Shown in pieces: positions 2,866 to 30,317 of a DNA stretch of 64,000 nt. Position 1 is the stretch's first letter; the number at the start of each line of letters is the position of its first letter. Where the stretch lies: assembly GCA_947304405.1 (NCBI GenBank), contig CAMZBB010000003.1, positions 836 through 64,835 of the forward strand, given 5' to 3'. The DNA comes from an uncultured Clostridia bacterium (GTDB lineage: Bacteria > Bacillota > Clostridia > Saccharofermentanales > Saccharofermentanaceae). Below the pieces are notes generated by a model. That model had not been told where the DNA came from, did not search any database, and saw only the letters and a list, made by a program, of their open reading frames with translations. Made by a program: the position numbers and the translations under genes.

Positions 2866-3942
2866 TCAAAGTTGAACGGGACGCTCAATGATCCCGCCGC
2901 CCATTACGTGACCTGATTCATCGTAGAAAACCGCAGACTGTCCGGGCGATACGCCCTTAACTGCTTCGTCCAGTCTGACACTCACAAGTCCGTCAGACAT
3001 GACTTCGATCGTTGCCGGACGCTCTGTCTGGTGATATCTGGCCTTGGCGAGACAGCGCATCTTCACACCTTCGGAGGGCGTCGGGATACTCTGGAAATTA
3101 ACGTCCCTGCATAAGAACGTGCCGCACATCAGAGAATCTTCGGTTCCAAGCACGACTGTATTGTTTATGGGGTCGATCATTGTGACAAACGCAGGGTAGC
3201 CCAAAGCAATGCCCAGACCTTTTCTCTGACCGACCGTGTACTGATGGATCCCCTTGTGCCTGCCCAAGACATTGCCTTCTTCGTCAACGAAATTACCTTC
3301 GCCGGGCAAAACCTTGTCAGTATGCTCACTAATGAAATCAGTGTATCTGCCTTCGGTTACGAAGCAGATCTCTTGAGATTCTTCTTTATGTGCGCAGGGA
3401 AGACCTGCGTCTTCAGCTATCTTGCGCACCTCATCCTTGGTGTACTGACCCAAAGGCATCAGCGTTCTCGAGAGTTGCTCCTGGGTAAGCTTATAGAGCA
3501 TGTACGTCTGGTCTTTGCTGATATGGGAAGCTTTGCGGACGGCATATCTTCCGTTTTCGAGTTTATCTATGTAAGCGTAATGGCCCGTTGCTACATAGTC
3601 AGCCCCGAAGATGTCTGCCAGCTCGATCATCTTGGCCCATTTGACATAGCGGTTGCACTCTATGCACGGGTTGGGCGTCTGCCCCTCAAGATATGCGTTA
3701 ACAAAAGGATCAACGACATTTTCTTTGAACAGGGAAGTGCAGTTATGCGGATGGTATTTGATATCCAGGAGATTACAGATGTGCCTGGCTTCATCGATCT
3801 CACAGCATCTGCTGTCTTCTTCGCCGTCAGAACCCCATACGCGGAGAGTCACGCCCATGACCTCATAGCCCTGTTTCTTCAGCAGATATGCTGCAACAGC
3901 GCTGTCGACTCCTCCGGACATACCGACGATCACTTTAGCCAC
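2866..3942 (-). CDS. mnmA: tRNA 2-thiouridine(34) synthase (tRNA-specific 2-thiouridylase)
   Basis: 358 aa with N-terminal PP-loop VGMSGGVDSAVAAYLLK, conserved Cys residues and end-to-end MnmA-like sequence. GTG start. Confidence 0.93.
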   Translation of the reverse strand: MAKVIVGMSGGVDSAVAAYLLKKQGYEVMGVTLRVWGSDGEEDSRCCEIDEARHICNLLDIKYHPHNCTSLFKENVVDPFVNAYLEGQTPNPCIECNRYVKWAKMIELADIFGADYVATGHYAYIDKLENGRYAVRKASHISKDQTYMLYKLTQEQLSRTLMPLGQYTKDEVRKIAEDAGLPCAHKEESQEICFVTEGRYTDFISEHTDKVLPGEGNFVDEEGNVLGRHKGIHQYTVGQRKGLGIALGYPAFVTMIDPINNTVVLGTEDSLMCGTFLCRDVNFQSIPTPSEGVKMRCLAKARYHQTERPATIEVMSDGLVSVRLDEAVKGVSPGQSAVFYDESGHVMGGGIIERPVQL

Positions 3943-5382: not shown

Positions 5383-6627
5383 ATGAGTATGAGAGTAGGG
5401 ATAATCGGCGGCGGTGCAGCGGGCCTTTATGCGGCCTGCCAGTTAAAGCGCCTTAAAGAAGACAGCGATGTTGAAGTTACGCTTATCGACAGAAATCCCG
5501 TACCCGGAAAGAAACTGATACTTACCGGACACGGGCGCTGCAATATCACCAACCGCAAAGACGCTTCACAGCTTAAGAAGGGTTTTCACGAAGCAGAGAA
5601 ATTCATATATCCGGCTCTTATGGAATTCGGATCTGAAGATACCATGGCTTTTGCCGAGAACGAACTCAGAATTAAGCTCAAGGAAGAAGAAAACAACAGG
5701 ATATTTCCAAAATGTGACAGCGCGATCGTCGTCAGGGATACCTTAGTTCAGTATATTTCTGACAGTACTGAAATTTTGCGGGAGACCAAGGTCACTAAGA
5801 TCAATAAGTCAGAAGACTTTGAAGTAATAACTGATAAAGGAACATACCATTTCGATCAGATCATCCTTTCGTGCGGCGGAAGTTCATTTGCGAAAACAGG
5901 TTCCACCGGTGATTCATATAAGTTCGCAAAAAGCTTAGGCCATACGGTAAACCCGCCCAAAGCAGCGCTCGCTCCTGTGAAAGCAGATGAGTTTTTCTGC
6001 GGCATCTGCAGAAAGTTAAGCGGTGTCTCTTTGAATGCCATGGTGTCAGTTTTTATAGAAAACAAGAAGACTGCGTCTTATGAAGGCGACGTTCTTTTCG
6101 CCGACTTCGGACTTACGGGTCCTGCGGTGATGGAGATCTCCAGAGAGATACCGTTAGATGTCGTAGAAAAGAAAGCATATCTTGAATTGGATATTGTTCC
6201 ATCAATGAACGATGAAGCATTTGACCGTGAACTGCAGGAACTGATAAGCGCACATGCAGACACTAAGATAACAACGCTTCTTTCGAGGTTTGTGCCGGCA
6301 TCAGTTGCAGCGGAAATAGCAGGGCAGGCCGGCACTGCCGATATGTATGCGCAGGGTTTTGCAAAGGAAAAGCGTAAGACCATATGCCGGCTGATGAAGC
6401 ATCTGCATATCGGTCTTTATAATGCTCCTGAGATCGATAAAGCATACGTCACAAGAGGCGGCGTCGTATTAAGCGAAGTAGACCGCAAGACTATGCAGTC
6501 CAAGATAGTTCCGGGTCTTTATATCCTCGGCGAAGCATTGGACATCGACGGCATAAGCGGAGGCTATAACCTTCAGGCATGCATGAGCGAAGCTTATCTT
6601 GCAGCCAAGGATATCCTTAAGAAGTAG
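5383..6627 (+). CDS. NAD(P)/FAD-dependent oxidoreductase, HI0933/BaiN-like flavoprotein family
   Basis: N-terminal Rossmann motif IIGGGAAGLYAA and GKKLILTGHGRCNITN, characteristic of the HI0933-like family. 414 aa. Confidence 0.8.
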   Translation: MSMRVGIIGGGAAGLYAACQLKRLKEDSDVEVTLIDRNPVPGKKLILTGHGRCNITNRKDASQLKKGFHEAEKFIYPALMEFGSEDTMAFAENELRIKLKEEENNRIFPKCDSAIVVRDTLVQYISDSTEILRETKVTKINKSEDFEVITDKGTYHFDQIILSCGGSSFAKTGSTGDSYKFAKSLGHTVNPPKAALAPVKADEFFCGICRKLSGVSLNAMVSVFIENKKTASYEGDVLFADFGLTGPAVMEISREIPLDVVEKKAYLELDIVPSMNDEAFDRELQELISAHADTKITTLLSRFVPASVAAEIAGQAGTADMYAQGFAKEKRKTICRLMKHLHIGLYNAPEIDKAYVTRGGVVLSEVDRKTMQSKIVPGLYILGEALDIDGISGGYNLQACMSEAYLAAKDILKK

Positions 6628-25262: not shown

Positions 25263-26393
25263 TCAGATGTAAGTCCCCAGATATGTGAAATCAGAAGGCT
25301 CAGAGTCCAGCTGGCATAAAAGCTTCACAACCTCGTCGGAATAGACTGATGCTTCGAAATCCAAGTAGAACATGAATTCGAAGTCAGAACCTGCGATAGG
25401 GCGGGATTCGATCTTGGTGAGATTGAGTTCAAGTGAAGAGAATTTCGCGAGAGTGTCCGCAAGAGCGCCGGGGCGATGTCCGAGAGAGAGCATTATCGAT
25501 GTCTTGGAAGCACCGGGATAGATACGGAGATCTTTTGTTATGCAGATGAAACGCGTGTAATTGTGATCGGTATTCTGGATCTTTACCGGGATTGAATCAA
25601 GGCCATAGAGCTGACGGCAGTCGGCAGATGATATTGCAGCGATGTCATTTCTTTCGGAGTCAGCGACCATGCGGGCTGCCACTGCCGTGTTCTGCACGAT
25701 GTTGATCTTGATGTCGGAGTGCTCTTTGAGGAACTGGCTGCATTGTCCGATCGCCTGGTTATGTGAATAGATCTCCTTTATGTCTTTGAGATCGGTACCA
25801 GGTTTTACGAGCAGCTGGTGATTGATCTTAAGCTTATAGTCACGCGCAATGTAGAATTTGTGGTCTGCCATAAGGTCATAGACCTGTGTGACCGAACCAT
25901 AGGAACTGTTCTCGATGGGGAGCATTCCGAATTCGCAGAGGCCGCTCTCAACTGCCTGGAAGACACCGTCGAATGTCTTGAAATACATGATGTTTGCATT
26001 GGAGAACAGTTTGTCGGTCGCTATTTGTGAATATGCGCCCTCGATGCCCTGACAGGCGATCATGCCGGAAGAAGGGAAGAGCTTTGGAGTATCGGCTATG
26101 GCCTTTGCAATCTTGTCTGCCATTTCTGTATTTGTTCCGTAATCGGAGTTCTTATATGAATGGCTCATGTTGAAAAGTGCCTGGAACAGCATGCGCTCAT
26201 ATCCGCTGATATCCTTGTAATCTTTTTCAAGTCCGTTCATGAATCCGCGTTCATAGCGCCTGCATTTCAGTGCTATCTCCGAACTTGATATGCCCTCATC
26301 TGCACGGCGGCTTGCATCAAGGCGCTCTTCTACGAGTCTGGCGATCTCACGGTCGATCTCTTCGATCCTTAAACTTGATTCCTTCTGTGTCAT
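25263..26393 (-). CDS. pheA: bifunctional chorismate mutase / prephenate dehydratase
   Basis: N-terminal chorismate mutase helix (LRIEEIDREIARLVEERL), a PDT domain and a C-terminal ACT domain. ATG at 26393 lies 7 nt after AAAGGAG (the track's TTG at 26414 lies in the attenuator T-run). Confidence 0.88.
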   Translation of the reverse strand: MTQKESSLRIEEIDREIARLVEERLDASRRADEGISSSEIALKCRRYERGFMNGLEKDYKDISGYERMLFQALFNMSHSYKNSDYGTNTEMADKIAKAIADTPKLFPSSGMIACQGIEGAYSQIATDKLFSNANIMYFKTFDGVFQAVESGLCEFGMLPIENSSYGSVTQVYDLMADHKFYIARDYKLKINHQLLVKPGTDLKDIKEIYSHNQAIGQCSQFLKEHSDIKINIVQNTAVAARMVADSERNDIAAISSADCRQLYGLDSIPVKIQNTDHNYTRFICITKDLRIYPGASKTSIMLSLGHRPGALADTLAKFSSLELNLTKIESRPIAGSDFEFMFYLDFEASVYSDEVVKLLCQLDSEPSDFTYLGTYI

Positions 26394-26412
26394 TGCTGTT
26401 CTCCTTTGCTTC

Positions 26413-26444
26413 AAACAAAAACCCCGCAGTTTTTCACTGCGGGG
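26413..26444 (-). terminator. intrinsic terminator of the pheA leader (attenuator)
   Basis: Minus strand reads CCCCGCAG-TGAAAAA-CTGCGGGG followed by TTTTTGTTT, immediately upstream of the pheA RBS. Confidence 0.8.
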
Positions 26445-26487
26445 CTAAAGTCCTAATTTCTTTATCTTGATCTACAGGCAGTGAAAA

Positions 26488-26550
26488 CTATTCGCTCTTT
26501 TTGAGGGCAAAAAACGTAAAGTCAAAGCTTGTAAACCAAAAATTCATCAT
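26488..26550 (-). CDS. Phe-rich leader peptide (20 aa) of pheA
   Basis: Hand translation gives MMNFWFTSFDFTFFALKKSE, with 6 Phe in 20 residues. The stop codon overlaps AGTTTTCACTGC (26489-26478), which is complementary to the 5' arm and loop of the terminator. Confidence 0.65.
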   Translation of the reverse strand: MMNFWFTSFDFTFFALKKSE

Positions 26551-26556
26551 GGGCGG

Positions 26557-26585
26557 ATTATAAACCTGTTTTTGCAGTTTGTAAA
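26557..26585 (-). promoter_or_regulatory. putative promoter of the pheA leader transcript
   Basis: Minus strand reads TTTACA (26585-26580), 17 nt, TATAAT (26562-26557). The leader ATG lies 6 nt downstream of the -10, so the transcript may be leaderless. Confidence 0.5.
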
Positions 26586-26652
26586 TATTACTCTTTTGAG
26601 TCATTAACATGAATTGAGTTTAAATGGTTTATGTGCGCGGTATACTCTTTAC

Positions 26653-28479
26653 ATGGTTTTCTATAAAGAAGAAACATTCAGGCGCGCGCGTTTTAGAAAG
26701 GCCACTCTCATCCTGCTTGCGGGATCCGTTCTGTTGGCGGTTCTTTACGCGGGCTGCACGCTGTTCAAACCGTCCGGGGATCCTGAAGGTACAGCCTCTT
26801 CTTCTGAAACTGTTCTTGAGGAAAAAAGCAATTATTCCAAGTATTCCGCAGGCTTTACAACGATCGAAGGTAACGTAAGCAAATACGAGCTGGGCCCCTT
26901 AGATGACAGGGAAGCGCCTGAAGTTGTTGTCTCGGGCAAATATTTTTATTTCCTCTGCCGGGTATCCGGGAAATATGAGATAAAGAAGATCAATATCGAA
27001 GATCCTTCTGATTCAGGTATTGCCAAGATCGACGGGGACGAAGAATATTTCTGTCTTTTAAGCGATTACGGCGTGAGAGTCGAGAATAAAGACGAAGTCA
27101 TCTTCATGGATCTCGAACTCAATGTCATTTGTTCTGTCCCAAATAAAGAAGATATCGAGTATATTGCCCCGTATAAGGATTCATACATTGTTTTGCAGGG
27201 AGATGATCTCTCCATACTGAAGGACGGGAAGCTCGAGCCGTTCAGGAGACTTAATCAGAACGGTTACGTGGTGATGAACCAGCAGATCACGGAAGATAAT
27301 ACAAGGCTTCTCCTCAATGACAATAACAATAACCATGAAGGCCAGTTCTGTTTCTATATATACGACGTGAATGCCGACAAATATACGGAAGTCAAAAATA
27401 TGGGCTTTAACTACTCGGCAGACGGATTCTACGACATTACCCCCAAAAGGATAATGGTAAGAAAACTGACAGAAGATCAGGAACAGGAGTACGAAAACAA
27501 GTATCCGGGAAACATCGCTACTTCATTTTTTGACGGGGAAAGGCTGTATTTATGCGATGAGGGCGATCTGACGATAAGGTATTACGATCCGTTCCGCCAG
27601 ACGATATGCAGTCTGTCTGATCATGAATTTGCCAGATACGGAGTTAACTTCAGGGGATTATCCGGCAAGAAGCTGTTCTTCATCCTTAACAGTGAACTGT
27701 ATGTCATCGATACCGCGTCTTGCGAAGAACTTCCCGTTGAAGAATTCAATATCGCCCTTCACGGAAAGATAGAAGACCTGTCGACTGAGATCAGAGACAA
27801 GTATTCGGTCAATTTCCAGTACGGCAAAGACGCAGCTAAGGAAATCCGCGATAATGTAGAGGTAACTGAGCTCAAAGAGGAGACAAGGGTTCTTTATTCG
27901 ATGAAAAAGATCTCGGAATACATCAGACGGTTCGGAAAGGAATTCTTTGATGATTTCCGTTACGGAACTTCCAAAGGGCTTTATGTGCTTCTCGGAGGCT
28001 ATACCCAGGTTACGAACGACGGCGCCAAGATCGATGCAGGCGGTGTCGCTTTCAGACAGGGCGATGTATTTTATATAGTCCTGAATGTAACCAATGACGA
28101 CCCCGCAAGAAATTTCTGCCACGAGATCATGCACTCGATGGAACATAACACAGACTCGGATACTATCTTCTCCGAATGGAAAAAATACAATCCCAATGGC
28201 TTCAAATATGCAGACAGTTACGCAGCGGGTACGGATGAAAAATATACGCTTTACGGTCCTGACGAAGAAGAGAAGTATTTCATTGATTCCTACTCAAAGA
28301 CCAATGCCTTGGAAGACAGGGCAAGGATCTTCGAGAATATGCTCGCTACTACAAAGGAAGAATGTCAAATAAATGATTATCCGCATATCAGGGCCAAGGC
28401 TAACTATATGAGGGAAAGGCTGTGTAAACTTTATCCTTCATTGAAGAATACGGATATTTTCAGAAATCTGGACGGTTGA
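26653..28479 (+). CDS. putative lipoprotein with C-terminal zincin-like motif (paralog 1)
   Basis: Signal/lipobox LLAVLYAGC. C-terminal CHEIMHSMEH (HExxH overlapping HxxEH) and EDRARIFE. Clear paralog of the next gene. The start is uncertain (ATG at 26653 has no clear RBS). Confidence 0.6.
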   Translation: MVFYKEETFRRARFRKATLILLAGSVLLAVLYAGCTLFKPSGDPEGTASSSETVLEEKSNYSKYSAGFTTIEGNVSKYELGPLDDREAPEVVVSGKYFYFLCRVSGKYEIKKINIEDPSDSGIAKIDGDEEYFCLLSDYGVRVENKDEVIFMDLELNVICSVPNKEDIEYIAPYKDSYIVLQGDDLSILKDGKLEPFRRLNQNGYVVMNQQITEDNTRLLLNDNNNNHEGQFCFYIYDVNADKYTEVKNMGFNYSADGFYDITPKRIMVRKLTEDQEQEYENKYPGNIATSFFDGERLYLCDEGDLTIRYYDPFRQTICSLSDHEFARYGVNFRGLSGKKLFFILNSELYVIDTASCEELPVEEFNIALHGKIEDLSTEIRDKYSVNFQYGKDAAKEIRDNVEVTELKEETRVLYSMKKISEYIRRFGKEFFDDFRYGTSKGLYVLLGGYTQVTNDGAKIDAGGVAFRQGDVFYIVLNVTNDDPARNFCHEIMHSMEHNTDSDTIFSEWKKYNPNGFKYADSYAAGTDEKYTLYGPDEEEKYFIDSYSKTNALEDRARIFENMLATTKEECQINDYPHIRAKANYMRERLCKLYPSLKNTDIFRNLDG

Positions 28480-30317
28480 TGATGAGAAACGGACAAAAAG
28501 AAAGAACAAGAACTATCATTCGCGCGGCAGGTCTTATCCTGACGCTTTCCCTGGTATTGGGATTATTCTCAGGCTGCAAGGAAAAGCAAACTCCCGTTGT
28601 TATTGGGTCGTCACCTGCAAATACGGAACCTGCTCCTACAGAGACTGCAACGCCTGAGTTCGATCCCGACAAGCCCGTTTCGATCGGCGAGACGGCTGAG
28701 ACAAGCGTACCCTTCGGCCGCCTTACCGAGAATGTCGGATACCTGAATATCGGACTGACTGAAAAGGATTTTCCCGCGTATGTTTTGAAAGGCCAATACA
28801 TTTATTGCCTTTCAGGCGCAGGCGGGAAATATACTTTCCGGAAGATCAATATCGAGAACCTTGAAAGATCCGAGATCAGGGAGATCAGCGTTAACGGCGG
28901 CACGGCCACTCTTCTTGATTTCGGTTTAAGATGTGACGTCAACAATGAATCTGTCTTCTACGATTTCAGTTTTCACGAGATCTGCAGGATGAGAGGCGCT
29001 TCGGATGAGCAGAAGCTGGTTCCCTATAAGGACGGCTATCTTGTAAAGGAAGGCGCTCTGCTGAAGATCCTTCACCTTGATGATGACCAGCCTTACAGAA
29101 AACTGGATTCAAGTGATTATGTTATCACCGGTTATCATTCGACCGGAGACAATACATACCTGATAATGAAGAACAGCAAGGGTACGGATGCCGCGACATG
29201 TACCATTTACGACGTTAACAGAAAAACATACTTCAAGAGAGTTACTGACAATGTTGTCCTTTGCGACAACAGCATGATCAGGCGTTCGGCAGGAAAGTAT
29301 CACGTCACCAATTTTGCAAACAAGAAAACGGATTCTTATAAGAGCAATAATCCCGGAAAGATAGGGAGCAGCCTTTTCGATGGAACGAGACAGTTCTACT
29401 TCGATCAGGCGGACCGCAAGATCAAGTACTATGTACCGTCAAAGCAGCAGATATGCGTGCTTTCTGATGCGGAATTTGTGATCGGAGCCGAGCTCAAGGG
29501 CCTTTACGGAAGCTATGTATATGCCCAGTATGGCGGTGTGCTGTATTTCATCGATTCGGCGGGGCAAAAGGAACAGCCGGCGAGCAAGTATGCAAAGAAG
29601 ATAAAAAAAGAGGCGGCAGAACTCAAGAAGAATCTCGAATTCCATTACAGGATCAAGATCTTAAGCGGAAAAGATGCCGTTAAGGCTGCATCGAAGGAGG
29701 CAAAACTCGTAGCGGTAACTTCAGATCTCGAGACCCTTACCGCCATGAAAGATCTTTCGCCCGCACTTAAGAAGTTCAGTTATAAGTTCTTCGATGAATT
29801 CAAGTGGAATAAGAAAGACGGCATAAACATCCTGCTTTCCGGAAATATCGCCATGGAGGAAAGAGGAGGAATGGAAGGCGCGTCGTTTACCGGGAAAAAT
29901 GCTTATTACATTGCGCTTGATATACATTCAGGCAATATGGCCATGACATTGCTAAGGGAGATAATGCATACGATCGAACACAGGATGGTCAATTCGGAAC
30001 AGATATTTAAGGATTGGGAAAGATATAATCCTGAGGGTTTCTCTTATTCCGAACTGAGCGCAGGTGCCGCGGATGCGCCTTATGTGCCTGAGAACGAGAG
30101 TGACCCCGCGAAAGTATATTTCACGGATTCATATGCCTGTGCAAGTCCCTATGAGGACCGTGCAAGAATATTTGCCTGCATGTTCCTGCCGGAAAAATAC
30201 GGCAGAAACTTAAGCGATTATCCTTGCCTTATGTCCAAGGCTGCGGGATTGAAGCACGTCCTTCTTGTTTATTACCCGTCGCTTTCCGAGTCGGCGGTCC
30301 TTAAGGATATAAGATGA
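28479..30317 (+). CDS. putative lipoprotein with C-terminal zincin-like region (paralog 2)
   Basis: Start overlaps the upstream stop (TGATG). Lipobox LFSGC. Shares the YFYxL..GKY..KINIE and EDRARIF blocks with paralog 1, but the motif reads REIMHTIEH (first His of HExxH lost, HxxEH retained). Confidence 0.6.
   Translation: MMRNGQKERTRTIIRAAGLILTLSLVLGLFSGCKEKQTPVVIGSSPANTEPAPTETATPEFDPDKPVSIGETAETSVPFGRLTENVGYLNIGLTEKDFPAYVLKGQYIYCLSGAGGKYTFRKINIENLERSEIREISVNGGTATLLDFGLRCDVNNESVFYDFSFHEICRMRGASDEQKLVPYKDGYLVKEGALLKILHLDDDQPYRKLDSSDYVITGYHSTGDNTYLIMKNSKGTDAATCTIYDVNRKTYFKRVTDNVVLCDNSMIRRSAGKYHVTNFANKKTDSYKSNNPGKIGSSLFDGTRQFYFDQADRKIKYYVPSKQQICVLSDAEFVIGAELKGLYGSYVYAQYGGVLYFIDSAGQKEQPASKYAKKIKKEAAELKKNLEFHYRIKILSGKDAVKAASKEAKLVAVTSDLETLTAMKDLSPALKKFSYKFFDEFKWNKKDGINILLSGNIAMEERGGMEGASFTGKNAYYIALDIHSGNMAMTLLREIMHTIEHRMVNSEQIFKDWERYNPEGFSYSELSAGAADAPYVPENESDPAKVYFTDSYACASPYEDRARIFACMFLPEKYGRNLSDYPCLMSKAAGLKHVLLVYYPSLSESAVLKDIR

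What the first reader, a model, noticed from the sequence alone, without database searches (positions are those of the whole stretch)
26413..26585. Ribosome-mediated Phe leader-peptide attenuator upstream of pheA
Between a good promoter (TTTACA-17-TATAAT) and pheA lies a 20-codon ORF, MMNFWFTSFDFTFFALKKSE, with 6 Phe including an FxFF cluster. Its stop codon overlaps AGUUUUCACUGC. That sequence can pair (10 bp plus) with GCAGUGAAAA, which forms the 5' arm and loop of the terminator CCCCGCAG-UGAAAAA-CUGCGGGG-UUUUU just before the pheA RBS. A ribosome reaching the stop would mask the antiterminator and allow termination. A ribosome stalled at the Phe codons would leave the antiterminator free. 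This is the enterobacterial pheL logic. In Firmicutes, aromatic amino-acid genes are usually described as controlled by T-box or protein-mediated mechanisms, so a leader-peptide attenuator here is unusual. The ATG lies 6 nt after the -10 box, implying a possibly leaderless leader mRNA.
Basis: partly seen in the sequence, partly recalled or inferred. Interest (0 to 1): 0.7.

Follow-up and report, generated by a model that had tools for sequence, protein, structure and literature searches.

The report
Leaderless Phe leader-peptide attenuator of pheA
In this rumen Clostridia relative (Saccharofermentans group), a tiny phenylalanine-rich reading frame, apparently starting at the first base of the transcript, sits before a terminator and most likely switches the phenylalanine-synthesis gene pheA on when phenylalanine runs short; this is the classic E. 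coli pheL trick in an unexpected lineage.

Summary
A near-consensus promoter (26585-26557) is followed 6 nt later by ATG. The 20-codon ORF has 6 in-frame Phe codons (26550-26488). A perfect 10-bp antiterminator (26487-26478 with 26440-26431) overlaps an intrinsic terminator (26446-26413) just before the pheA RBS.

A long 1:2 anti-antiterminator helix pairs codons 4-8 with the sequence just after the stop. This completes the classical three-helix attenuator.

The module is conserved upstream of pheA in all 11 related species genomes (PheA 63-92% identical) and in 14 metagenome contigs, giving 21 distinct sequences. The ORFs are 17-28 codons with 5-10 Phe. The peptide sequence drifts but the Phe codons stay. 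Terminator and 1:2 helix show compensatory changes. The ATG always lies 6-8 nt after the -10 box and has no Shine-Dalgarno sequence.

It matches no Rfam family, and more distant Clostridia lack it.

Verdict: a real, very probably Phe-responsive ribosome-mediated attenuator. It is a new member of a known kind. Its leaderless start was previously reported mainly in Actinobacteria. No experiment supports it yet. Interest is moderate.

The parts
26580..26585 (-). -35 hexamer TTTACA
   Evidence: Promoter scan, 11 of 12 match with a 17-nt spacer. A -35-like hexamer (TTTACA, TTTACT or TTGTAA) sits at 16-18 nt in all 26 leaders, while the spacer sequence varies.
26557..26562 (-). -10 hexamer TATAAT
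   Evidence: TAnAAT is invariant in alignment A1. It reads TATAAT or TAAAAT in all 26 leaders.
26548..26550 (-). ATG of the leader ORF, predicted to be at or next to the transcription start (leaderless)
   Evidence: The ATG lies 6 nt after the -10 box here and 6-8 nt after it in 26 of 26 leaders. ATGA is invariant. No Shine-Dalgarno sequence can fit. In 17 of 21 distinct leaders no in-frame upstream start exists. The TSS itself is inferred, not mapped.
26488..26550 (-). pheL-like leader ORF, MMNFWFTSFDFTFFALKKSE plus TAG. Phe codons are 4, 6, 9, 11, 13 and 14 (26541-39, 26535-33, 26526-24, 26520-18, 26514-09).
   Evidence: In-frame Phe enrichment has P = 0.0002. Orthologous ORFs are 17-28 codons with 5-10 Phe. 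Positions between the Phe codons vary, and TTT/TTC synonymous changes occur.
26527..26541 (-). Region 1: 5' strand of the anti-antiterminator (1:2) helix, UUUUGGUUUACAAGC, covering codons 4-8
   Evidence: Seen in the MFE fold. The same helix appears in the MFE of all leaders folded and in the RNAalifold consensus. Pairing is 85-86%, with 4-5 pairs showing compensatory change.
26465..26487 (-). Region 2. It holds the antiterminator 5' arm UUUUCACUGC (26487-26478), which starts directly after the stop codon. It also holds the 3' strand of the 1:2 helix, GC-C-UGUAGAUCAAGA (26479-26465).
   Evidence: (10 of 10 complementarity). The two helices share 26479-26478, so they exclude each other.
26431..26440 (-). 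Region 3: GCAGUGAAAA, which is the upper 5' arm plus the loop of the terminator and pairs with region 2 to form the antiterminator
   Evidence: The terminator loop sequence GUGAAA is conserved across orthologs. The 2:3 helix is 97% paired, and one pair changes U-A to G-C.
26413..26446 (-). Intrinsic terminator: stem 26446-26420 (11 pairs, 7 of them G-C) and U tract UUUUUGUUU 26421-26413
   Evidence: Pairing is 94-100% across 12 and 21 leaders, with 3-4 pairs changed on both sides, for example C-G to U-A.
26401..26407 (-). Shine-Dalgarno sequence AAAGGAG of pheA
   Evidence: Read from the sequence. It is conserved in the orthologs.
25263..26393 (-). pheA (prephenate dehydratase, 376 aa), the regulated gene and apparently monocistronic
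   Evidence: Pfam PDT, E = 3e-57. NCBIfam prephenate dehydratase models. A terminator-like hairpin lies at 25227-25192 downstream, and the next gene is convergent.

Best explanation
This is a classical ribosome-mediated (leader-peptide) transcription attenuator that makes pheA transcription depend on charged tRNA-Phe.

Transcription starts at or next to the A of the ATG at 26550 (inferred). The first ribosome loads on the 5'-terminal AUG without a Shine-Dalgarno sequence and follows the polymerase.

When Phe is plentiful, the ribosome reaches the UAG. Its footprint covers the 10-nt arm UUUUCACUGC that begins right after the stop. After release, region 1 re-pairs with region 2. Region 3 is then left free, the GC-rich terminator forms, and transcription stops at the U tract before pheA.

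When Phe is scarce, the ribosome stalls on one of the six Phe codons. Four of them lie in or just after region 1. The stalled ribosome holds region 1 away from region 2. Region 2 then pairs with GCAGUGAAAA as soon as it is transcribed. This removes half of the terminator's 5' arm and its loop, so the polymerase reads into pheA.

Without any translation, the 1:2 helix forms and termination is the default in the window's leader.

Shown here: the sequence elements, their mutual exclusivity, their conservation and covariation, and the restriction to pheA.

Inferred here: the transcription start, translation of the ORF, and the response to Phe.
For: 1. Anatomy. Promoter, ORF, a perfect 10-bp 2:3 pairing and the terminator are all present. 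The 1:2 helix plus terminator is the MFE fold (-46.3 kcal/mol, z = -4.2).

2. Conservation in genomes. All 11 species-level genomes whose PheA is 63-92% identical carry the same module directly upstream of pheA.

3. Conservation in metagenomes. A pattern scan gave 29 hits. Fourteen are true leaders and every one precedes a pheA-like start. This includes a new variant, L085, with 10 Phe in 27 codons.

4. The codons are selected, not the peptide. ORF length ranges from 17 to 28 codons and the stop position moves by about 25 nt relative to arm 2. Residues between the Phe codons vary (D/A/N/I, T/S/W/F). Phe count stays at 5-10 and TTT/TTC swaps occur. In-frame TTY enrichment has P from 0.009 to below 5e-5 in six lineages.

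5. Structure conservation.
- Terminator: 93.9% paired with 4 compensatory pairs in 12 sequences, and 100% paired with 3 compensatory pairs in 21 sequences.
- 1:2 helix: 85% paired with 4-5 compensatory pairs. Covariation score is reached by 2 of 500 and 0 of 500 shuffles, and slid registers drop to 27-48% paired.
- 2:3 helix: 97.4% paired, mostly invariant.
- RNAalifold independently recovers the 1:2 helix plus the terminator.

6. Ribosome-mask folding of the nascent RNA. In the window, no ribosome gives 0 pairs of 2:3. A ribosome at any Phe codon gives 8-10 pairs. A ribosome at the stop gives 0 pairs. Most orthologs behave the same way.

7. Leaderless start. The ATG lies 6-8 nt after the -10 box in 26 of 26 leaders. 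No upstream in-frame start exists in 17 of 21. In a crude motif scan that chose the candidate start with the best match, 50 of 57 other genes in the window have an SD-like motif, so the missing SD here is specific. The intergenic space up to the divergent gene (ATG 26654) is only 103 nt.

8. Precedent. pheL-pheA attenuation is established in gamma-proteobacteria (PMC3082878). Leaderless leader peptides are established in Corynebacterium and mycobacteria (PMC4046766; bioRxiv 10.1101/834739).
Against: - There is no experimental evidence of any kind: no TSS, no ribosome occupancy, no Phe response.
- At equilibrium the full-length RNA prefers the terminator in almost every masked state. Read-through must therefore be kinetic, as in classical attenuators. 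That is assumed here, not shown.
- In several leaders (L002, L005, L006, L087, L101, L106) a ribosome stalled at the last Phe codons (13 or 14) leaves region 1 free, and the simulation returns 1:2 rather than 2:3.
- In L004, L008, L009 and the L011-type leaders, the untranslated nascent RNA already prefers 2:3. The default state therefore differs between lineages.
- In L007 and L009 a ribosome at the stop does not reach the arm.
- The 2:3 helix is nearly invariant, so covariation says little about it (171 of 500 shuffles reach the observed score).
- The metagenome leaders were selected with a pattern that contains both arms. They add no independent support for the 2:3 helix or the upper part of the terminator stem.
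- Leaderless initiation is generally regarded as uncommon in Firmicutes (background knowledge).
Confidence: 0.8

Rival explanations
1. The attenuator works the same way but the ORF is not leaderless. Transcription starts further upstream from another promoter, and the ORF is translated by SD-independent internal initiation. In the window it could be the longer 38-40-aa ORF.
For: The window and L001 have an open in-frame extension with an upstream ATG. Automatic gene callers call a 38-aa ORF in several assemblies. No TSS data exist.
Against: In 17 of 21 distinct leaders there is no in-frame upstream start. In most of these the frame upstream is closed by a stop within 3-9 codons of the ATG (15 and 29 codons in L009 and L007). 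The -35 and -10 hexamers are conserved while the spacer varies, and the ATG keeps a 6-8 nt distance in 26 of 26 leaders. No SD-like motif lies upstream. Only 103 nt separate the ATG from the divergent gene.
Confidence: 0.12
2. The terminator/antiterminator switch is controlled without translation. The controller would be a tRNA (T-box-like), a metabolite riboswitch or an RNA-binding protein (TRAP- or PyrR-like), and the Phe codons would be incidental to a U-rich leader.
For: T-box and protein-mediated control are the commonly described modes for aromatic amino-acid genes in Firmicutes (background knowledge). The leader is U-rich (38% T).
Against: No Rfam family reaches its gathering score in the window or in 13 orthologous loci. 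In the E <= 10 scan there is no T-box hit. TTY triplets are concentrated in one frame (6 against 2 and 2, up to 10 against 4 and 5), far beyond composition-matched shuffles. That frame opens with a conserved ATG and closes with a stop placed next to or inside arm 2 in every lineage. I saw no repeated triplet array of the TRAP kind in the sequence.
Confidence: 0.04
3. The small ORF encodes a functional hydrophobic micro-protein, and the hairpin is simply that gene's terminator or a leaky terminator, unrelated to Phe sensing.
For: The peptide is hydrophobic and conserved within the closest species.
Against: Across lineages the peptide changes in length (17-28 aa), C-terminus and most non-Phe residues. 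The Phe codons and the RNA pairings are kept. It matches no Pfam or NCBIfam family. Every true leader found, in genomes and in the metagenome scan, lies immediately upstream of pheA. The conserved terminator loop is complementary to the sequence at the ORF's stop, which a plain terminator does not need.
Confidence: 0.03

Closest known systems
Enterobacterial pheL-pheA attenuator (Rfam Phe_leader RF01859; E. coli pheL [15 protein letters not shown])
   Same: The logic and the target are the same. A short Phe-rich leader ORF is followed by mutually exclusive 1:2, 2:3 and 3:4 helices and an intrinsic terminator directly before pheA. The regulatory amino acid is the pathway's product (PMC3082878, and established knowledge).
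   Different: No sequence or structure homology is detectable: 14.8 bits against a gathering score of 55. The host is a Clostridia lineage. The 2010 survey found pheL only in gamma-proteobacteria plus Bacteroides and Desulfobacterium. The Phe codons are interspersed (FxFxxFxFxFF) rather than in long runs. The ORF has no Shine-Dalgarno sequence and begins 6 nt after the -10 box. An independent origin is likely, because more distant Clostridia have pheA inside an aroC-pheA operon without a leader.
Leaderless leader-peptide attenuators of Actinobacteria (C. glutamicum ilvB, trp, leuA and aroF leaders; mycobacterial poly-Cys leaderless short ORFs)
   Same: The leader peptide is translated from a 5'-terminal start codon without a ribosome-binding site, and it controls downstream amino-acid genes (PMC4046766 and Morbach 2000 as cited there; bioRxiv 10.1101/834739 and PMC4633059).
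   Different: The phylum differs: Bacillota rather than Actinomycetota, where leaderless mRNAs are common. The amino acid and target gene differ. In this case the leaderless start is inferred only from conserved promoter geometry.
Leu/phe leader of Lactococcus lactis (Rfam RF01743)
   Same: It is a candidate leader-peptide attenuator in a Firmicute associated with Leu or Phe genes (it is listed in the table of PMC2864571; the details are from my own knowledge of the Rfam entry).
   Different: It gave no hit at E <= 10 in the Rfam scan of the region. It belongs to a different class (Bacilli) and has no resemblance in sequence.
Predicted His leader-peptide attenuators in Firmicutes (B. cereus group, Peptostreptococcaceae including C. 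difficile, Erysipelotrichales)
   Same: These are lineage-restricted, computationally predicted classical attenuators in Firmicutes. They appear to have replaced other control modes (PMC9413887).
   Different: They use His codon runs and his operons. That paper does not report a leaderless start.
T-box leaders (the usual tRNA-sensing antitermination in Firmicutes)
   Same: They have the same output, a terminator/antiterminator choice, and sense the same physiological signal, tRNA charging.
   Different: T-boxes read uncharged tRNA directly, with no ORF. No T-box is detected here.

Membership tests
Classical ribosome-mediated (leader-peptide) transcription attenuator | Short ORF in the 5' leader enriched in codons for the amino acid made by the downstream gene | tested here: met
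   The window ORF has 6 Phe in 20 codons. Orthologs have 5-10 Phe in 17-28 codons. In-frame enrichment has P <= 0.009 in six lineages. The downstream gene is prephenate dehydratase.
Classical ribosome-mediated (leader-peptide) transcription attenuator | Intrinsic terminator between the leader ORF and the structural gene | tested here: met
   An 11-pair stem plus U tract lies at 26446-26413. It is 94-100% paired across orthologs with compensatory changes.
Classical ribosome-mediated (leader-peptide) transcription attenuator | Antiterminator that excludes the terminator, plus an anti-antiterminator that overlaps the ORF | tested here: met
   The 2:3 helix is 10 of 10 bp and shares GCAG and the loop with the terminator. 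The 1:2 helix shares 26479-26478 with 2:3 and covers codons 4-8.
Classical ribosome-mediated (leader-peptide) transcription attenuator | Codon placement such that a stalled ribosome favours the antiterminator and a terminating ribosome favours the terminator | tested here: met
   In the mask simulation for the window, stalling at a Phe codon gives 8-10 pairs of 2:3, while a free RNA or a ribosome at the stop gives 0. Most orthologs agree. The exceptions are listed in the Against line. This is in silico only.
Classical ribosome-mediated (leader-peptide) transcription attenuator | Read-through responds to Phe or charged tRNA-Phe in vivo or in vitro | not testable with these tools
   This needs Term-seq, Northern blots or reporters under Phe limitation.
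Rfam Phe_leader (RF01859) | Covariance-model score at or above the gathering threshold (55 bits) | tested here: not met
   The score is 14.8 bits, E = 8.5. There is no hit at gathering level.
Rfam Leu/phe leader (RF01743) and T-box | Covariance-model match | tested here: not met
   Neither is among the 14 matches at E <= 10 in 26300-26700. Neither appears at gathering level in the window or in 29 related loci.
Rfam GcvB (RF00022) | Score at or above 42 bits and the GcvB stem-loop architecture | tested here: not met
   The score is 35 bits. Stem-loop 1 is aligned with many non-canonical pairs, and the match is carried by the terminator and a UUUUCACU..CCUGUA stretch. I judge it a chance resemblance.
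Leaderless mRNA (5'-terminal AUG) | Transcription start at, or within a few nt of, the start codon, with no Shine-Dalgarno sequence | tested here: inconclusive
   Promoter geometry is conserved: the -10 box is followed by 6-8 nt and then ATG in 26 of 26 leaders, and no SD is present. The TSS has not been mapped.

The most novel reading that the evidence does not exclude
A lineage of Clostridia (the Saccharofermentans/Mageeibacillus/KHP2 group) independently evolved a pheL-type attenuator when pheA left the aroC-pheA operon. It built the attenuator on a truly leaderless transcript. The first 70S ribosome loads on the 5'-terminal AUG as soon as it leaves the polymerase, which gives obligate transcription-translation coupling without any ribosome-binding site. 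If true, this would be the first leaderless leader-peptide attenuator described in Bacillota. It would also imply efficient leaderless initiation in a phylum thought to depend strongly on Shine-Dalgarno pairing.
Probability: 0.55. Interest if true: 0.5.

Novelty: new member of a known kind. Interest (0 to 1): 0.42.

Why it matters
It adds a clean, well-conserved example of leader-peptide attenuation in a class (Clostridia) where amino-acid genes are usually described as controlled by T-boxes, repressors or RNA-binding proteins. Attenuation of pheA had been reported only for gamma-proteobacteria and a few others.

The conserved spacing of 6-8 nt between the -10 box and the ATG gives a directly testable case of leaderless translation serving a regulatory purpose in Bacillota.

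The two architectural subtypes form a small natural series for asking how much of the classical trp/phe model is really required. In one the stop lies just before arm 2. In the other the ORF runs through arm 2.

In practice, the mini-ORF is either missed or over-extended by gene callers, and no Rfam model covers the element. The alignment made here could seed a new family.

Tried and rejected
- Rfam. There was no hit at gathering level in the window, in 16 distant pheA loci or in 13 orthologous loci. Sub-threshold hits were GcvB at 35 bits, trpB motif at 22.7, and Thr, His and Phe leaders at 15-17.5 bits. All of them share the terminator region (26410-26446), and I rejected them as memberships.
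- Extra copies of the leader. nhmmer with the leader profile against the window plus 80 loci found only the 12 pheA leaders. The metagenome pattern scan found the leader only before pheA. The other 15 of its 29 hits were chance matches with no promoter or ORF.
- Phe-rich ORF plus terminator in 69 more distant pheA loci. It found only 14 scattered spurious hits, none upstream of pheA.
- Peptide families. The mini-peptides match nothing in Pfam or NCBIfam.
- Longer 40-aa reading of the ORF. I rejected it because 17 of the 21 distinct leaders have no in-frame upstream start, and in most of them the frame is closed by a stop within a few codons of the ATG.
- Searches I could not run. Looking for analogous leaderless leaders before trp, his, leu or ilv operons of the same genomes was impossible.
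- Literature. Searches for a Firmicutes pheA leader peptide found none. The library is limited to open-access texts.
Full report
**1. What is in the sequence**

The feature lies on the minus strand. Reading 5' to 3':

- -35 TTTACA (26585-26580), a 17-nt spacer, -10 TATAAT (26562-26557). This is an 11 of 12 match and the best promoter-like site in the 3 kb scanned.
- Six bases (CCGCCC), then ATG at 26550.
- A 20-codon ORF, MMNFWFTSFDFTFFALKKSE, ending in TAG at 26490-26488.
- Directly after the stop, UUUUCACUGC (26487-26478). It is perfectly complementary to GCAGUGAAAA (26440-26431). This is a 10-nt inverted repeat with 37 nt between the arms.
- The second arm forms the upper 5' arm and the loop of a terminator hairpin (stem 26446-26420, 11 pairs, 7 G-C). 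The hairpin is followed by UUUUUGUUU (26421-13).
- The pheA Shine-Dalgarno sequence AAAGGAG (26407-01) and the pheA ATG (26393).

pheA (25263-26393) encodes a 376-aa prephenate dehydratase (Pfam PDT, E = 3e-57; NCBIfam). A terminator-like hairpin (25227-25192) and a convergent gene follow it, so it looks monocistronic.

A divergent 608-aa gene starts at 26654. Only 103 nt are left for both promoters.

**2. Is it more than chance?**

- The 10-mer of the antiterminator occurs exactly twice in the 64-kb window, and those are the two arms. The shuffle mean is 0.2, and 0 of 100 shuffles reach 2.
- Phe codons are frame-specific: 6 TTY in frame against 2 and 2 out of frame. P = 0.0002 against shuffles that keep the ORF's T-rich composition.
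- The leader RNA folds at -46.3 kcal/mol (z = -4.2; 0 of 200 shuffles fold as well).
- A generic search asked for a -10 box, 5-8 nt, ATG, a short ORF with at least 20% of one amino acid, and a terminator. Over about 1 Mb of held DNA it returned 27 hits, and 25 are this leader and its orthologs.

**3.

The MFE fold shows more than the terminator. A long hairpin pairs UUUUGGUUUACA-AGC (26541-26527, codons 4-8) with GC-C-UGUAGAUCAAGA (26479-26465). The 3' strand of this hairpin overlaps the last two bases of the antiterminator arm.

The leader therefore has the full classical set:

- 1:2, the anti-antiterminator;
- 2:3, the antiterminator;
- 3:4, the terminator.

**4. Relatives**

A scan of one genome per species found 339 pheA relatives, of which the best 80 were kept. 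The organism belongs to the Saccharofermentans/Mageeibacillus group of rumen and gut Clostridia (NCBI family Oscillospiraceae).

All 11 loci with an intact upstream region and 63-92% PheA identity carry the same module directly upstream of pheA. These are L001-L009, L011 and L012.

Loci at 57% identity or less mostly have pheA immediately after aroC, and none shows a leader upstream of pheA. A search for any Phe-rich short ORF plus terminator found nothing upstream of pheA in those 69 loci.

A metagenome scan used a pattern built from the two arms. It gave 29 hits. Fourteen are true leaders, and each precedes a pheA-like start. The other 15 have no promoter or ORF and are chance matches.

Together there are 26 leaders, 21 of them distinct.

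**5. What is conserved and what drifts**

- Promoter: the -35 and -10 hexamers are conserved while the spacer varies.
- Start: the ATG lies 6 nt (18 leaders), 7 nt (7 leaders) or 8 nt (1 leader) after the -10 box, and ATGA is invariant. No Shine-Dalgarno sequence can fit. By contrast, a crude motif scan that chose the best-matching candidate start found an SD-like motif for 50 of 57 other genes in the window.
- Upstream frame: in 17 of 21 distinct leaders there is no in-frame upstream start. In L002-L006 a TAG sits immediately before TATAAT. The 38-40-aa extended ORF that the window allows, and that some gene callers report, is therefore not the conserved unit.
- Peptides: they are 17, 20, 21, 27 or 28 residues long with 5-10 Phe. 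Residues between the Phe codons change (D/A/N/I, T/S/W/F). The C-terminus and the stop position change, and TTT/TTC swaps occur. This is the signature of selection on codons rather than on a peptide. The peptides match no protein family.

**6. Structures across relatives**

Every leader folded on its own gives the 1:2 hairpin plus the terminator as its MFE. RNAalifold recovers both from the alignment. Pair counts are as follows.

| Helix | Set | Paired | Pairs changed on both sides | Control |
|---|---|---|---|---|
| Terminator | 12 sequences | 93.9% | 4 | |
| Terminator | 21 sequences | 100% | 3 | slid registers 38-56% paired |
| 1:2 helix | 12 sequences | 85.1% | 4 | covariation score reached by 2 of 500 shuffles |
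| 1:2 helix | 21 sequences | 85.7% | 5 | covariation score reached by 0 of 500 shuffles; slid registers 31-44% paired |
| 2:3 helix | 12 sequences | 97.4% | 1 (U-A to G-C) | two pairs drift to G-U; 171 of 500 shuffles reach the score |

The 2:3 helix is almost invariant, so covariation says little about it. What speaks for 2:3 is that the loop of a terminator is conserved and stays complementary to arm 2. In the L011 type the pairing is even extended to 12 bp (CGGUUUCAUUGC with GCAGUGAGACCG).

One caveat applies. The metagenome sequences were selected with both arms in the pattern. They add independent weight only for the promoter, the ORF, the 1:2 helix and the lower terminator stem.

**7. 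How it most likely works**

I folded the nascent RNA, cut before the 3' arm of the terminator, with a 28-nt ribosome footprint masked.

For the window:

- no ribosome gives the 1:2 helix and 0 pairs of 2:3;
- a ribosome with any of the six Phe codons in the A site gives 8-10 pairs of 2:3;
- a ribosome at the stop gives 0 pairs of 2:3.

So Phe starvation favours the antiterminator. Both efficient translation and no translation at all favour the terminator. This is the trp/phe paradigm, including superattenuation.

There are two subtypes.

- Type A (window, L001-L009 and similar leaders): the stop lies 3-4 nt before the arm core, or 15 nt before it in L007 and L009.
- Type B (L011, L012, L085, L094, L095): the ORF reads through arm 2 and stops inside the 3' strand of the 1:2 helix (GCC UGA). 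The translating ribosome itself melts the antiterminator. In this type the untranslated RNA already prefers 2:3.

Weak points of the model:

- At equilibrium the full-length RNA nearly always prefers the terminator, so the decision must be kinetic.
- Stalling at the last Phe codons leaves region 1 free in some leaders.
- The default state differs between lineages.

None of this has been tested at the bench.

**8. Known relatives and membership**

- It works like enterobacterial pheL-pheA, but it is not a detectable member of Rfam Phe_leader (14.8 bits against 55).
- It is not a T-box or a Leu/phe leader (no hit at E <= 10).
- A 35-bit GcvB match (threshold 42) is carried by the terminator and a short U-rich stretch. 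I reject it.
- A 2010 survey found pheL only in gamma-proteobacteria, with possible cases in Bacteroides and Desulfobacterium (PMC3082878).
- Leader-peptide attenuators have been predicted in Firmicutes for his operons (PMC9413887). The Lactococcus Leu/phe leader is another case (PMC2864571).
- Leaderless leader peptides are documented in Corynebacterium (PMC4046766 and Morbach 2000 as cited there) and in mycobacteria (bioRxiv 10.1101/834739; PMC4633059).
- My searches found no report of a Phe leader-peptide attenuator in Clostridia or of a leaderless one in Firmicutes. The library holds only open-access texts, so this absence is weak evidence.

**9. Verdict**

This is a new member of a known kind. 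It is a lineage-restricted, probably independently evolved pheL-type attenuator in Clostridia.

- Confidence in the attenuator mechanism is about 0.8.
- Confidence that the leader ORF is truly leaderless is about 0.55-0.65.
- Interest is moderate (0.42). The mechanism is a textbook one. The host lineage, the leaderless geometry and the two natural subtypes are worth a short experimental follow-up and an Rfam entry.

Noticed in passing
window 26654-28479 (+) and 28476-30317 (+): Two tandem paralogous ORFs of about 610 aa lie divergent from the pheA leader. They have no Pfam match. Both carry an HExxH-like motif near the C-terminal third (..CHEIMHSMEH.. and ..LREIMHTIEH..) and a hydrophobic N-terminus. 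They may be an uncharacterised family of secreted or lipoprotein metalloproteases.
   Followed up: no
window 26085-26393 (-), PheA residues 1-103: The N-terminal ~100 residues of PheA are conserved in the relatives but give no significant chorismate-mutase match. CM_2 scores E = 0.13 over 23 residues. Only the PDT domain and the C-terminal part match. The protein may therefore not be a true bifunctional P-protein.
   Followed up: partly
L002:300-400, L003-L006 about 3715-3815 (upstream of the leader promoter); absent from the window and L001: In five orthologous loci the intergenic region holds about 54 extra nt next to a well-conserved block, TTGCCCCGAAAGTGTCTCGGAAGCGTAACATAACGG (alignment A3). 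It may belong to the divergent gene's promoter or 5' UTR. It has no Rfam match.
   Followed up: partly
window 26413-26587 (-): A sub-threshold full-length Rfam match to the gamma-proteobacterial sRNA GcvB scores 35 bits (gathering 42, E = 3e-6 for the 401-nt search). It includes a UUUUCACU-CCUGUA stretch resembling part of GcvB. I judged it coincidental.
   Followed up: partly
window 5383-6627 (+): A 414-aa ORF has no SD-like motif before its ATG but has TAGAAT exactly 6 nt upstream. It may be a second leaderless start in this genome. If real, it would support efficient leaderless initiation in this organism.
   Followed up: no
L011, L012, L085, L094, L095 (type B leaders), codon 25 or 26: These leaders carry an extra Phe codon (UUC) inside the antiterminator 5' arm. 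A ribosome stalled there masks the arm, and the simulation gives 0 pairs of 2:3. The last Phe codon would therefore act against read-through. This wrinkle is unexplained.
   Followed up: partly
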